A stretch of DNA of 36,309 nt from an archaeon (GTDB lineage: Archaea; SpSt-1190; DYHY01). Where the stretch lies: NCBI GenBank assembly GCA_043803745.1, contig JAZDJS010000031.1:1-36309 (forward strand), read 5' to 3'. The notes beneath the pieces were generated by a model. It saw only the letters and a program-made list of their open reading frames with translations, searched no databases and was not told the origin of the DNA. This document shows, piece by piece, positions 13,041-20,400 of this stretch; position 1 is the first letter of the stretch; each line of letters starts with the position of its first letter. Position numbers and translations under genes: made by a program.

Positions 13041-13786
13041 GCATACGCCCTAAGAAGTGGCTTGGGCAGAATTTCCTCACCGACAGGAAAACTCTCGAGT
13101 TCGAGGTTTCGGCAGCGGGAGTCTGCGGGAAGGACACCGTCCTTGAAATAGGCCCCGGGGACGGACGGCTCACAAGACTTCTTGCCGAGCGGGCGAAAAG
13201 GGTTGTTGCGGTTGAGAAGGACCTGGAAATGGCGAAATTCCTGGAAGGCCTGCCGGAAAACGTTGAGCTGGTTTTCGGGGATTTCACGAAGCTCCAGCCG
13301 CTCCCGGAATTCAACAAGGTTGTCGCGAACATACCCTACAACCTTTCCTCAAAAATAGCCTTCATCCTCCTCGAGGGGCACGGATTCGAGGTCGCTGTTC
13401 TGACGTTTCAGAAGGAATTCGCAGAACGGCTCGTCGGCAGGCCAGGAACGAAGAACTGGGGGCGCCTTTCGGCAACGGTTAGCTTCCTTGCAAATGTGGA
13501 ACTGCTGAAAACCGTTCCGGCAGGGGCGTTCTACCCAAAGCCGAAGGTTGATTCGGCCGTTGTGCGGATAATCCCGAAGGAAAAGCCGGAAGGGTGGGAG
13601 AGCACGAAAAGGGCTATCAATGCCCTTTTCACGAATCCCGGGAAGACCGTCAAAAACGCCCTGAAGGGGAAAACCGACTCGGAAATCCCTGAGGAGTTCC
13701 GGGGAAAGCGGGTGAGGCGGCTTTCCCCCGGGGAGCTTGAAGCGCTTGGCGCGGCATGTTTCAGAGCCCAAAATATATTTAAATAG
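13037..13786 (+). CDS. rsmA: 16S rRNA m6,2A1518/1519 dimethyltransferase KsgA/Dim1
   Basis: LGQNFL, VLEIGPGDG, VANIPYNLSS, QKEFAERL, FYPKPKVDSAVV. Confidence 0.96.
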   Translation: MSIRPKKWLGQNFLTDRKTLEFEVSAAGVCGKDTVLEIGPGDGRLTRLLAERAKRVVAVEKDLEMAKFLEGLPENVELVFGDFTKLQPLPEFNKVVANIPYNLSSKIAFILLEGHGFEVAVLTFQKEFAERLVGRPGTKNWGRLSATVSFLANVELLKTVPAGAFYPKPKVDSAVVRIIPKEKPEGWESTKRAINALFTNPGKTVKNALKGKTDSEIPEEFRGKRVRRLSPGELEALGAACFRAQNIFK

Positions 13787-18910: not shown

Positions 18911-19415
18911 AACCGAAGTGAAAATCCTGGGGATAAACGAGCGAGCCGTTGAGTCGCGGCTGAAGGCGCTCGGAGCAAGGAAGATTTTCGACGGGAGGAT
19001 TGACGGGCTTGCCCTTGACTTTCCGGACGGGGTCCTTTGGAAATCCGGAGCGCTGCTGAGATTGAGAAAAAGGGGGAAAAATTCCGAGCTCACCTTCAAG
19101 AGGGTCGTTTCCGGAAAAAGAACCAAGCGGGCCGTCGAGATTGAAACCGATGTTTCGGATTTCGCGCGAGCAAAGCGGATTTTCGAGGCGCTCGGGCTTG
19201 TTGAGAAGTGGAGGATCTCCAAGCACAGGACATCCTACAAGCTCGGAAAAGCCGAGATTGAAATTGACAAACTTCCCGGAATCCCCGCATATCTCGAAAT
19301 TGAGGCGGAAAGCTTCGGCGAAATAAGGCGGATTGCGGAACGCCTCGGCTTTGGGGCTGGCGAGCTCAAGCCCTGGTCGATGCGGGACGTTATCGCGCAT
19401 TATAGTAAAAAGTAA
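18903..19415 (+). CDS. CYTH / class IV adenylate cyclase-like triphosphate tunnel enzyme
   Basis: ETEVK (ExExK), LRLR, LTFK, EIET, IEIDKLPGI..YLEIE. TTG start at 18903. Confidence 0.9.
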   Translation: MVETEVKILGINERAVESRLKALGARKIFDGRIDGLALDFPDGVLWKSGALLRLRKRGKNSELTFKRVVSGKRTKRAVEIETDVSDFARAKRIFEALGLVEKWRISKHRTSYKLGKAEIEIDKLPGIPAYLEIEAESFGEIRRIAERLGFGAGELKPWSMRDVIAHYSKK

Positions 19416-19439
19416 AAAGGGTTGGCGCGAGTTTCATCC

Positions 19440-19519
19440 GCTCCGCCCATAGCCGAACGCTTGTGATTCTGATGCACAACATCTAACGTGAGCAGGCGTG
19501 CGAGGGCGGGGCAACAGTT
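19440..19519 (+). ncRNA. Putative box H/ACA pseudouridylation guide RNA (single hairpin with K-turn)
   Basis: Hand-folded. Lower stem GCUCCGCCC/GGGCGGGGC, pocket AUAGCCGA/GCGA, upper stem ACGCUUG/CAGGCGU, K-turn UGA / CGU-GAG, apical GAUG/CAUC. ACA at 19514-19516 lies 14 nt from the upper stem. G-U pairs favour the + strand. Confidence 0.7.
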
Positions 19520-19644
19520 CTTAGGCTTGCCCTCCGGCAGGGGGAGAGAGGGGGGAGAGGGCGGGGCTGAGCGGAGGGAGGGAAGACGGAACGTTTATTA
19601 GAAAAAAGTCTCTTTTTTATACAAGGCGCGAGGGAATTCCGGCA

Positions 19645-20400
19645 ATGGCAATCAAGCTTGTCCTCCTCAGGCACGGAAAAAGCACCGACAATATCGGAGG
19701 GATCTTTTCCGGATGGCGTGACTGCGACCTTGCGGACGCAGGGATTGCTGAAGCGCATGCAGCCGGGAGGAAGCTCAAGGAGGGAGGGTATTCTTTCGAA
19801 GTTTCTTTCACTTCCTACCTTCGGCGGGCGATAAAGACGCTCTGGATTGCGCTTGAGGAGCTCGACCTGCTATGGATTCCCGAGGTGAAGGACTGGCGGC
19901 TTAACGAGCGGCACTATGGCGCGCTCCAGGGCAGGAAACACGAAGAGATTGAGGCAAAATTCGGAAAAGAGCGGGAATTTCTCTGGAGGCGGAGCTTCGA
20001 AACCCGCCCGCCTCTTCTTGAGGACGGGGATTCCCGCCTTGCCGAGAACGAGGCGAAGTATTCGGGGATTCCCGGCATTCCAAGAGGCGAGTCCCTGAAG
20101 GACGTGATTCCGAGGGTTTCGTCATTCTACCACGAAATGGTTGTCCCGCTCCTGAAGAAGAGGAAGCGGATATTGATTTCCGCGAGCCACAACAGCCTCC
20201 GGGCGCTTGTCAGCTATTTCGAGGAACTCCCGACCGAGAAAATCCCCGAGCTCAACATCCCGACCGGCATACCGCTTGTCTACGAGCTTGACGAAGAAAG
20301 CCTGAAGCCACTCAAGCACTATTACCTTGCAAGCGACGAGCAGGTCGAAACTGCGCTGAAGAGCGTCCGGGTTTCTTCCGGACCGGTTCCGGGAAAATAG
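19645..20400 (+). CDS. gpmA: 2,3-bisphosphoglycerate-dependent phosphoglycerate mutase
   Basis: LVLLRHGKS, FSGWRD, WRLNERHYGALQG, WRRSF, GESLKD, SHNSLRAL, LNIPTGIPLVYELD. Confidence 0.93.
   Translation: MAIKLVLLRHGKSTDNIGGIFSGWRDCDLADAGIAEAHAAGRKLKEGGYSFEVSFTSYLRRAIKTLWIALEELDLLWIPEVKDWRLNERHYGALQGRKHEEIEAKFGKEREFLWRRSFETRPPLLEDGDSRLAENEAKYSGIPGIPRGESLKDVIPRVSSFYHEMVVPLLKKRKRILISASHNSLRALVSYFEELPTEKIPELNIPTGIPLVYELDEESLKPLKHYYLASDEQVETALKSVRVSSGPVPGK

What the first reader, a model, noticed from the sequence alone, without database searches (positions are those of the whole stretch)
19440..19519. Unannotated K-turn H/ACA guide RNA predicted to target 23S rRNA U2504 (E. coli numbering) in the peptidyl transferase centre
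Seen: a complete archaeal H/ACA architecture in an intergenic gap. It has a 9-bp lower stem (19440-48/19504-12), a bipartite pocket AUAGCCGA/GCGA and a 7-bp upper stem. Above that is a K-turn with tandem G.A pairs and a CGU bulge, and the ACA lies 14 nt below the pocket top. The guide rule gives target (CC)UCGC-U-N-UCGGCU. Established: conserved 23S domain V reads CCUCGA-U2504-G-UCGGCUC, and E. coli makes pseudouridine 2504 with the stand-alone enzyme RluC. Inference: RNA-guided modification of this site in a probably reduced-genome archaeon. The single mismatch predicts either a tolerated G.A pair or an unusual C at the 2503-equivalent.
Basis: partly seen in the sequence, partly recalled or inferred. 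Interest (0 to 1): 0.75.

Follow-up and report, generated by a model that had tools for sequence, protein, structure and literature searches.

The report
Pseudouridine guide RNA for ribosome's catalytic centre
A small conserved hairpin RNA gene in a tiny-genome archaeon has the hallmarks of a box H/ACA guide RNA. It most likely directs conversion of one uridine in the ribosome's catalytic centre (U2504 in E. coli numbering) to pseudouridine, a site that bacteria modify with a protein-only enzyme.

Summary

The architecture alone is only marginally above chance. Comparative evidence makes it a real RNA gene:
- It recurs in a same-genus genome, a same-family genome and a metagenome contig.
- 7 of 22 stem pairs change on both sides, while the pocket, both GA dinucleotides and the AACA tail never change.

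The geometry fits published archaeal H/ACA rules: 9-bp lower stem, 10-layer "GA stem", and ACA 14 nt from the pocket-closing pair.

The own assembly has no rRNA. In the same-genus relative, which carries the same pocket, the pocket pairs 4+6 Watson-Crick with that genome's own 23S around an unpaired U2504-G2505. Only 22 of 20000 shuffled pockets find such a site.

It is not rare, though: 40 of 401 sampled archaeal genomes have it.

cbf5, nop10 and L7Ae are present. gar1 is undetectable in the whole phylum.

There are no expression or modification data.

Verdict: a new H/ACA guide family with a new target site, so a new member of a known kind. The scan found H/ACA guides for other sites on other DNA, but no look-alike of this one.

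The parts
19400..19419 (+). A/T-rich TATA-like box (TTATAGTAAAAAGTAAAAAG), 21-40 nt upstream of the stem; putative archaeal promoter
   Evidence: Sequence. A/T-rich boxes sit at the same distance in G001 and G003 despite unrelated flanks. The promoter function is inferred.
19440..19448 (+). Lower stem (H1), 5' strand
   Evidence: 9 bp; 2 of the 9 pairs change on both sides among 4 variants, and all cells are paired.
19449..19456 (+). 5' guide strand AUAGCCGA; A19451-A19456 pair with 23S 2506-2511 (UCGGCU)
   Evidence: Invariant in 4 of 4 variants. Pairing with the G001, G002 and G004 23S.
19457..19463 (+). Upper stem (H2), 5' strand
   Evidence: 7 bp with 19493-19499. 4 of the 7 pairs change on both sides.
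19464..19466 (+). U.G layer plus GA of the K-turn (non-bulged strand)
   Evidence: GA is invariant. It forms tandem sheared pairs with G19490 and A19491 by sequence register.
19467..19486 (+). Apical part: irregular C stem and a small hairpin (19471-74 with 19480-83, loop CACAA)
   Evidence: The 4-bp hairpin is always paired, with 1 compensatory pair. The two proposed C-stem pairs are paired in only 71% of cells.
19487..19492 (+). K-turn bulged strand: CGU bulge, GA, then G
   Evidence: UGA is invariant in 4 of 4 variants.
19493..19499 (+). Upper stem (H2), 3' strand
19500..19503 (+). 3' guide strand GCGA; pairs with 23S 2500-2503 (UCGC) in relatives
   Evidence: Invariant. Pairing.
19504..19512 (+). 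Lower stem (H1), 3' strand
19514..19516 (+). ACA box (within invariant AACA), 14 nt from the pocket-closing pair
19517..19522 (+). GTTCTT, a T-rich stretch right after ACA; possible archaeal terminator
   Evidence: T-rich runs follow ACA in the other variants too. Inferred.

Best explanation
Window 19440-19516 (+) encodes a single-hairpin archaeal box H/ACA guide sRNA of about 77 nt with its own promoter-like and terminator-like signals.

Proposed mechanism:
- Cbf5 binds the ACA box and lower stem through its PUA domain.
- L7Ae binds the K-turn-like GA motif 10 layers above the pocket, and Nop10 bridges the two.
- The pocket strands pair with 23S rRNA nucleotides 2500-2503 (3' guide GCGA) and 2506-2511 (5' guide AGCCGA).
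- U2504 and G2505 stay unpaired, so U2504 enters the Cbf5 active site and is isomerised to pseudouridine.

Shown here: the structure, its conservation and covariation, the perfect complementarity in a sister genome, and three of the four partner proteins. Inferred: transcription, RNP assembly, and the modification itself.
For: 1. All structural elements sit at the stated coordinates. The fold is strand-specific.

2. Homologues exist in G001 (same genus), G003 (same family) and metagenome contig L094. With 4 distinct sequences, 94.3% of pair cells are standard pairs, against 27.6-48.3% when partners are slid. 7 of 22 pairs change on both sides, and 0 of 500 shuffles reach the covariation score. 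The pocket strands, both GA dinucleotides, the U before the 3' GA and AACA are invariant.

3. Flanking genes differ between G000, G001 and G003, so this is an independent gene and not a gene-specific terminator.

4. Geometry fits published rules. The lower stem is 9 bp, within the 7-9 bp rule. The stretch between ACA and the pocket-closing pair is 14 nt, within the 14-15 nt rule. The GA stem is exactly 10 layers, as in all full RNP crystal structures and in 14 of 15 productive Pyrococcus folds (passages of PMC4652768; abstract of PMC2377435).

5. G001 carries the same pocket. In its SSU plus LSU exactly one U has 4+6 contiguous Watson-Crick pairs around an unpaired UN. Only 22 of 20000 shuffled pockets find any such site. 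That site is the U2504 equivalent by the Rfam LSU alignment and by ungapped alignment to MG1655 rrlH.

6. The n-1 pair (G19500 with C2503) and the n+2 pair (A19456 with U2506) are Watson-Crick, as required of productive duplexes (PMC4652768). With A2503 the 3'-guide duplex weakens from -3.6 to -1.5 kcal/mol.

7. Cbf5 carries DKCLD, TruB_N, TruB_C_2 and PUA domains. It matches P. furiosus Cbf5 at E 9e-99 with the GTLDP motif aligned. Nop10 and L7Ae are also present.

8. No RluA/RsuA-family synthase (PF00849) is present.
Against: 1. gar1 is undetectable. PF04410 finds none in G000. No genome of the 17 in the phylum passes the cut-off. At E 0.001 the count is 0 of 17 against 38 of 54 other archaea. 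A custom Gar1 HMM built from 28 archaeal Gar1 frames gives a best E of 2.7 over 20839 frames of G000. In T. kodakarensis, deleting gar1 abolished a guided pseudouridine in vivo (passages of PMC6138745).

2. G000's own 23S and 16S are not assembled, so the native pairing is untested.

3. The 3' guide duplex is only 4 bp. Muller et al. found the 3'-guide duplex to be the critical one, and a 4-bp duplex with two G.U pairs failed.

4. By Muller's count helix H2 should be 5-6 bp. Here it is 7 bp plus a U.G layer, although the 10-layer GA-stem rule is met.

5. The K-turn's C stem is irregular and not conserved as Watson-Crick pairs.

6. Only 4 distinct sequences support the covariation.

7. No homologue was found in G002, G004 or G009, although their 23S carry the same target sequence.

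8. Family f10 has the identical target sequence. It carries the Pyrococcus-type snoR9 RNA, so it is probably Thermococcaceae. In T. kodakarensis the region 2588-2612 shows only three pseudouridines, none at the position that by offset should equal 2504 (the offset is my inference).

9. There are no expression data.
Confidence: 0.8

Rival explanations
1. It is an H/ACA-type RNA that binds Cbf5, Nop10 and L7Ae and the 23S 2500-2511 segment, but it does not (or only barely) make pseudouridine. It would act as a folding or assembly chaperone for the catalytic-centre region, or be a near-dead relic, because the lineage lacks Gar1.
For: gar1 is undetectable in 17 of 17 genomes of the phylum. Gar1 is needed for turnover in vitro and for a guided site in vivo in T. 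kodakarensis. The 3' guide duplex is short.
Against: The pocket, the ACA box and the exact 14-nt and 10-layer geometry that positions the target U are strictly conserved. That is what catalysis needs, more than mere binding does. Without Gar1 the Pab91 particle (L7Ae, Cbf5, Nop10) still modifies its target in single turnover.
Confidence: 0.1
2. It is a K-turn-containing structured RNA of another function, for example an L7Ae-binding regulatory element or a leader or trailer linked to the neighbouring phosphoglycerate-mutase genes. The 10-nt complementarity to 23S would then be fortuitous.
For: A phosphoglycerate-mutase-type gene lies next to the RNA in 3 of 3 genomes where both flanks are known. 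Each is of a different family: His_Phos_1 in G000, iPGM in G001, ApgM-type in G003. Architecture alone is only marginally above chance.
Against: In G003 the mutase gene is on the opposite strand and convergent. A/T-rich box and T-run signals bracket the RNA itself. Invariance falls exactly on the pocket, the GA motifs and ACA. The chance of such a 4+6 rRNA site is about 0.1%, and it falls on a functional-centre U that bacteria also modify.
Confidence: 0.05
3. It is a true H/ACA guide, but its real substrate is a different RNA (tRNA, 16S, another 23S site or an mRNA) in this organism.
For: The native rRNAs are unavailable. Archaeal guides can serve up to three sites (abstract of PMC2377435).
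Against: In the G001 SSU plus LSU only one site satisfies the 4+6 rule. All other sense-strand sites listed (9 or more of 12 positions paired) reach only 9, with internal mismatches. No strict site exists anywhere in the G000 assembly, its 40 tRNA genes included.
Confidence: 0.04
4. It is a chance hairpin or a generic intrinsic structure with no function.
For: Shuffled genomes yield descriptor hits almost as good: maximum stem sum 16 against 17 here.
Against: Conservation across genera in different gene contexts, with 7 compensatory pairs and invariant single-stranded motifs.
Confidence: 0.01

Closest known systems
Single-hairpin Pyrococcus box H/ACA sRNAs (Pab91/Pf9-type; also the H/ACA hairpin of Rfam snoR9, RF00065, examined)
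   Same: One hairpin with a lower stem of 9-10 bp, a pseudouridylation pocket, an upper stem ending in a non-Watson-Crick layer plus tandem G.A pairs, and ACA 14-15 nt from the pocket-closing pair. The GA stem has 10 layers. The same protein set of Cbf5, Nop10 and L7Ae is present.
   Different: There is no sequence similarity and no Rfam match. The target site is different. The apical part is a K-turn-like internal loop with an extra conserved hairpin, not a K-loop. The 3' guide is only 4 nt. No Gar1 is detectable in this lineage.
Nanoarchaeum equitans H/ACA box sRNA (Randau 2012, PMC3491384; abstract and passages seen)
   Same: It is an H/ACA guide kept in a strongly reduced archaeal genome. 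It is intergenic, has its own box-A promoter and T-stretch terminator, and has K-turn bulges with GA-GA pairs.
   Different: The N. equitans RNA is 159 nt with two hairpins, and its expression is proven by RNA-seq. Its predicted targets are in a supplement that I did not open. Here there is one hairpin and no expression data.
E. coli RluC (stand-alone RluA-family synthase making Psi955, Psi2504 and Psi2580; this function is recalled and comes from no call)
   Same: The predicted product at the same 23S position (pseudouridine 2504) is the same.
   Different: RluC is a protein-only enzyme of another family. No PF00849 protein is encoded in G000. Here specificity would come from RNA base pairing.
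Pab40 motif 1 / Pf7 (HgcG) guiding Psi2588 of P. abyssi 23S, and Pab35 guiding the sites made by RluE, RluB and RluC in E. coli (PMC2377435)
   Same: These are RNA-guided pseudouridylations in domain V, close to the peptidyl transferase centre, replacing bacterial stand-alone enzymes.
   Different: By the constant offset of 92 (my inference) none of the P. abyssi domain V sites (2549, 2554, 2585, 2588, 2603, 2672, 2685, 2697) equals E. coli 2504. So the site proposed here has no described archaeal guide in the papers I read.

Membership tests
Archaeal box H/ACA guide sRNA | Stem, internal loop, stem hairpin with a lower stem of 7-9 bp | tested here: met
   9 bp, 19440-48 with 19504-12. 100% of cells are paired in 4 variants. 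Rule taken from PMC4652768 passages.
Archaeal box H/ACA guide sRNA | ACA (ANA) box 14-15 nt 3' of the pair that closes the pocket | tested here: met
   14 nt (19500-19513), with ACA at 19514-16. The spacing is identical in all 4 variants. Rule from PMC2377435 and PMC4652768.
Archaeal box H/ACA guide sRNA | K-turn or K-loop with tandem sheared G.A pairs; GA stem of 10 layers from the pocket-closing pair to the second G.A | tested here: met
   7 bp, plus U.G, plus G.A, plus A.G makes 10 layers. GA and UGA are invariant. By the older count (H2 of 5-6 bp) it is 1 bp long. The snoR9 control hairpin shows the same counting ambiguity.
Archaeal box H/ACA guide sRNA | Canonical K-turn C stem (Watson-Crick pairs beyond the 3-nt bulge), or a K-loop in its place | tested here: inconclusive
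   The two proposed A-U pairs are paired in only 71% of cells, and the loop asymmetry varies between variants. L7Ae binding is untested.
Archaeal box H/ACA guide sRNA | Bipartite complementarity to a stable RNA around an unpaired 5'-UN-3', with Watson-Crick pairs at n-1 and n+2 | tested here: met
   4+6 Watson-Crick pairs with the 23S of G001 (same genus, same pocket), and also with G002 and G004. 22 of 20000 shuffled pockets do as well. G000's own 23S is absent from the assembly, so this was not tested on the native rRNA.
Archaeal box H/ACA guide sRNA | Conservation with compensatory stem changes and conserved guide strands | tested here: met
   7 of 22 pairs change on both sides, and the pocket is invariant. 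Only 4 distinct sequences are available.
Archaeal box H/ACA guide sRNA | Genome encodes Cbf5, Nop10 and L7Ae | tested here: met
Archaeal box H/ACA guide sRNA | Genome encodes Gar1 | tested here: not met
   There is no match in G000. None of the 17 phylum genomes matches, against 38 of 54 other archaea. The genome is 90% complete and Gar1 is small, so absence is likely but not proven.
Archaeal box H/ACA guide sRNA | Stable transcript, and guide-dependent pseudouridine at the predicted site | not testable with these tools
   No sequencing run was listed.
Any curated Rfam family (including snoR9 and HgcE/F/G) | Score at or above the family's gathering threshold | tested here: not met
   0 matches at gathering thresholds in the window. 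The only match at E up to 10 in 19300-19700 is noise.

The most novel reading that the evidence does not exclude
A whole archaeal phylum has lost Gar1. Its reduced-genome members still keep a working three-protein H/ACA particle with, as far as could be seen, a single guide RNA dedicated to pseudouridine 2504. That uridine sits beside a lineage-specific C2503 in the peptidyl transferase centre. RNA-guided Psi2504 would then be a convergent, and possibly compensatory, counterpart of bacterial RluC and RlmN chemistry at 2503/2504, and a natural example of a Gar1-independent H/ACA enzyme.
Probability: 0.2. Interest if true: 0.75.

Novelty: new member of a known kind. Interest (0 to 1): 0.55.

Why it matters
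If pseudouridine 2504 is really made here, three things follow.
- One catalytic-centre nucleotide would be modified by two unrelated routes: protein-only RluC in bacteria and an RNA guide in an archaeon.
- The guide would track a natural A2503C substitution in its target.
- The organism appears to lack Gar1, so it offers a natural test of whether an H/ACA particle can work without that subunit.

It also adds an unannotated RNA family (model R1) for annotating small archaeal genomes. It shows as well that C at 2503, usually described as an invariant A, is present in about a tenth of the sampled archaeal genomes.

Tried and rejected
1. Rfam gave no family at gathering thresholds in the window. 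In 19300-19700 at E up to 10 there was only a noise hit.

2. Sequencing runs: none was listed for window:18700-20400 and no RNA holder was listed, so expression could not be examined.

3. Native target: no LSU or SSU rRNA is in the assembly. The G003 LSU locus lacks the 2504 region because of an assembly gap.

4. More homologues:
- Model R1 over all 17 genomes of the phylum found only G000, G001 and G003, plus one weak partial hit in G013 (20.8 bits).
- One pattern scan each of metagenome contigs (10 loci) and genome contigs (2 loci) added one new variant (L094) and copies of G001 and G003. The other 8 loci did not match R1.

5. A pocket-pattern search in G002, G004 and G009 found no hit with both stems. 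The best one (L070, G002) does not fold: z +0.73.

6. Other H/ACA RNAs in G000:
- The strict descriptor gave 10 further hits, no better than shuffled genomes.
- A relaxed descriptor with G.U-tolerant target matching gave 526 candidates, 77 of them with 'targets'. It was too noisy to use and no shuffle control was run.
- The R1 hit at window 13528-13604 (13.6 bits, E 0.36) lies in coding-like sequence and was dropped.

7. A search of E. coli genomes with the archaeal fragment returned only an odd 2750-bp record. I used MG1655 rrlH by accession instead.

8. Literature:
- 'ACA sRNA' + '2504' + archaea + pseudouridine returned 4 papers, none relevant by title.
- DPANN + ACA + Cbf5 + pseudouridine returned nothing on H/ACA guides in such genomes by title.
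- These searches cannot find papers that use archaeal numbering.

9. The reading of a tolerated G.A pair was rejected, because the relatives carry C at 2503.

Full report
**1. Observation**

- A 9-bp lower stem: 19440-48 with 19504-12, including one G.U.
- Pocket strands AUAGCCGA (19449-56) and GCGA (19500-03).
- A 7-bp upper stem: 19457-63 with 19493-99, including one G.U.
- A U19464.G19492 layer, then tandem G19465.A19491 and A19466.G19490 pairs, with CGU (19487-89) bulged on the 3' strand.
- ACA at 19514-16, exactly 14 nt after the pocket-closing pair.

The element lies between a CYTH-domain ORF ending at 19415 and a histidine-phosphatase (phosphoglycerate-mutase-like) ORF starting at 19645.

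RNAfold returns this fold for the + strand: -35.5 kcal/mol, z -2.99, 2 of 200 shuffles as good. The - strand is ordinary: z -0.44, 59 of 200. The G.U pairs would be A.C mismatches on the - strand.

Rfam has no family for it.

**2. Is it more than chance?**

Architecture alone is weak evidence. A strict descriptor required perfect stems, GA on both strands, and ACA at 13-16 nt.
- In the 1.23-Mb genome it gave 11 hits. This one was top (stem sum 17) and the rest scored 15 or less.
- Twenty dinucleotide-shuffled genomes gave 4-22 hits with maxima of 12-16.

The comparative data decide the question.
- A DNA search of 60 relatives found the element in G001 (same genus, 88% identity) and G003 (same family, 72%). 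All other hits were short noise.
- A covariance model (R1) over all 17 genomes of the phylum found the same three, plus one weak partial hit.
- One pattern scan each of the metagenome and genome collections, checked with R1, added one new variant (L094) and copies of the G001 and G003 forms.

The four distinct sequences give the following counts.
- 94.3% of pair cells are standard pairs, against 27.6-48.3% when the 3' partners are slid by 1-3 columns.
- 7 of 22 pairs change on both sides: 2 in the lower stem, 4 in the upper stem and 1 in the apical hairpin.
- 0 of 500 shuffles reach the covariation score.
- Four sequences is a small sample, and the shuffle control ignores relatedness.

Both pocket strands, both GA dinucleotides, the U before the 3' GA and the AACA tail are invariant. 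Stems that vary while single-stranded guide and protein-binding motifs stay frozen is the pattern expected of a guide RNA.

**3. Independent gene**

The flanks differ between genomes.
- G000: a CYTH gene upstream and a His_Phos_1 gene downstream.
- G001: a small CxxCxxCC-domain ORF upstream and an iPGM downstream.
- G003: the RNA is convergent with an ApgM-type mutase.

An A/T-rich box lies about 21-40 nt upstream of the stem in G000 (19400-19419), and at a comparable distance in G001 and G003. T-rich runs follow ACA in the variants. This matches the box-A and T-stretch arrangement described for the N. equitans H/ACA sRNA (passages of PMC3491384). The promoter and terminator roles are inferred.

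**4. Geometry against published rules**

Muller et al. 2008 (PMC2377435; abstract and passages) give an ACA-to-target distance of 14-15 nt, helix H2 of 5-6 bp, and a dominant role for the 3'-guide duplex.

Toffano-Nioche et al. 2015 (PMC4652768; passages) define the 'GA stem' as running from the pocket-closing pair to the second G.A.
- It is 10 layers in all full RNP crystal structures and in 14 of 15 productive Pyrococcus folds.
- The lower stem is 7-9 bp.
- A continuous 14-15 nt lies between ACA and the first GA-stem pair.
- There is no mismatch or wobble at n-1 or n+2.

Here the lower stem is 9 bp, the stretch is 14 nt, and the GA stem is 7+1+2 = 10 layers in all four variants. By Muller's H2 count the helix is one pair long.

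As a control I examined the H/ACA hairpin of a bona fide snoR9 RNA from an f10 genome. It shows the same ambiguity: 6 bp and 15 nt, or 7 bp and 14 nt if a terminal U.G is counted.

The K-turn's C stem is irregular and not conserved as Watson-Crick pairs. The motif is therefore best called K-turn-like, and L7Ae binding remains to be shown.

**5. Target**

The assembly (90% complete, 51 contigs) holds no LSU or SSU rRNA. I therefore used the relatives' rRNAs.

- Scanning every U for pairing with the pocket found one perfect site in the LSU of G001, G002 and G004: UCGC-U-G-UCGGCU. It has 4 Watson-Crick pairs with the 3' guide and 6 with the 5' guide.
- In the G001 SSU plus LSU it is the only 4+6 site. 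Only 22 of 20000 shuffled pockets find any such site.
- G001 carries the identical pocket, so guide and target are shown within one genome of the same genus.
- The Rfam archaeal LSU alignment places the site on the consensus ACcUCGAUGUCgGcUc.
- An ungapped alignment to E. coli MG1655 rrlH, fetched by accession, shows that the unpaired U is U2504 and that the nucleotide paired with G19500 is position 2503.
- Position 2503 is A in E. coli and in G006, but C in G001, G002, G004 and G009.

With A2503 the 3'-guide duplex drops from -3.6 to -1.5 kcal/mol and would violate the n-1 rule.

No strict site exists anywhere in the G000 assembly, its 40 tRNA genes included. The G003 LSU locus lacks this region.

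**6. How unusual is C2503?**

It is less unusual than assumed. The motif UCGCUGUCGGCUC..AUCCUGG occurs in 40 of 401 sampled archaeal genomes. These include 20 of 20 in family f10 and 6 of 10 in f26. I did not count how many of the other 361 carry the A form or simply lack an assembled LSU.

Family f10 carries the Pyrococcus-type snoR9 RNA, so it is probably Thermococcaceae. This is an inference.

The region 2588-2612 of T. kodakarensis 23S shows pseudouridine only at 2589, 2592 and 2607 (passages of PMC6138745). P. abyssi domain V sites are 2549, 2554, 2585, 2588, 2603, 2672, 2685 and 2697. By the constant offset of 92 (4 more in T. kodakarensis), which is my inference, none of these equals E. 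coli 2504. C2503 therefore does not by itself call for Psi2504, and no described archaeal guide for this site turned up in the papers I read.

A preprint on divergent archaeal catalytic centres (10.1101/2024.11.12.623245; abstract, section 6 and passages) reports variation at 2447-2453 and 2500-2504 in Thermoprotei and Methanomethylicia. The text I could see does not mention 2503 or this lineage. Its figure and supplements were not visible to me.

**7. Protein partners**

- Cbf5 is 321 aa with DKCLD, TruB_N, TruB_C_2 and PUA domains. It matches P. furiosus Cbf5 of the solved RNPs at E 9e-99, with the GTLDP motif aligned.
- Nop10 (60 aa) and L7Ae (126 aa) are present.
- No RluA/RsuA-family synthase is encoded. 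The control for that search rings in 10 bacteria and in none of the 4 archaea.

Gar1 is the exception.
- PF04410 finds nothing in G000.
- No genome of the 17 in the phylum passes the cut-off; the only hits are two weak ones at E 0.05-0.1.
- At E 0.001 or better the count is 0 of 17 against 38 of 54 other archaea.
- An HMM that I built from 28 of those Gar1 frames gives a best E of 2.7 over 20839 frames of G000.

Gar1 drives product release and turnover (review PMC7991803, passages). In T. kodakarensis its deletion abolished a guided pseudouridine in vivo, although the Gar1-less Pab91 particle still modified its target in single turnover. This is the main evidence against a fully canonical mechanism, and also the most interesting loose end.

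**8. Verdict**

The most likely reading (about 0.8) is a genuine single-hairpin box H/ACA guide sRNA that directs Cbf5 to the U2504 equivalent of 23S rRNA.

Rivals, with rough odds:
- A non-catalytic or crippled H/ACA RNA in a Gar1-less lineage: 0.1.
- Another kind of K-turn RNA, with chance complementarity or a link to the neighbouring mutase genes: 0.05.
- A true guide with a different substrate: 0.04.
- Chance: 0.01.

It is a new RNA family not in Rfam and apparently a new guided site. H/ACA guides in reduced archaeal genomes are already known, for example in N. equitans. This scan has also found H/ACA guides for other 23S sites in other genomes, though no look-alike of this sequence. I therefore class it as a new member of a known kind, of moderate interest.

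Noticed in passing
23S rRNA of relatives: L052 (G001), L051 (G002), L050 (G004), L054 (G009); pattern hits: The nucleotide equivalent to E. coli A2503, usually treated as invariant, is C in 40 of 401 sampled archaeal genomes. These include all 20 of one family of complete ~2-Mb genomes (f10) and 6 of 10 of another (f26). In the window's own phylum the four reduced-genome LSUs have C, and the large-genome G006 has A.
   Followed up: partly
Same 23S loci, E. coli positions 2453, 2497 and 2499: Further variation sits next to the catalytic centre. Position 2497 is G or U instead of A. Position 2499 is A or U instead of C. G004 also has U at 2453, so the A2453-C2499 partners change together in G004 (U/U) and singly in G001 and G002 (A/A).
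   Followed up: no
Whole genome G000 and the 16 other genomes of its phylum: Gar1 is undetectable in 17 of 17 genomes of the phylum, against 38 of 54 other archaea with the same search. A custom Gar1 HMM also finds nothing in G000. Cbf5, Nop10 and L7Ae are present.
   Followed up: partly
window 19645-20400; L003 1713-3089 (G001); L004 184-1389 (G003): The guide RNA sits next to a phosphoglycerate-mutase-type gene in all three genomes. Each gene is from a different, non-homologous family: His_Phos_1, iPGM, and ApgM-type (the last is convergent). This could be a remnant of synteny with in-place gene displacement, or coincidence.
   Followed up: partly
L038 (G001 LSU, contig positions 2635-6394): The G001 23S gene spans 3760 nt against a 2987-position model. 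That includes a 136-nt insertion about 25 nt downstream of the predicted target site. The G002 LSU is also long (3172 nt), while the G004 LSU is not (2936 nt). The insertions may be introns or expansion segments.
   Followed up: no
window 19536-19590: A purine-rich G/A tract (GGGGGAGAGAGGGGGGAGAGGGCGGGG...) lies between the RNA and the downstream gene. A 22-nt piece of it matches G004 at 95% (E 0.002). It is not conserved next to the RNA in G001 or G003.
   Followed up: no
G000 contigs C15:73026, C21:2056, C27:7676, C46:3380 (+) and C51:6423 (-): The 11-mer GTCGGCTCGTC is the DNA form of 23S 2505-2515 in relatives. It occurs 5 times in the rRNA-less assembly, where about 0.6 would be expected for a random 11-mer. 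The sites look like coding contexts, so it is probably a recurring protein motif.
   Followed up: no
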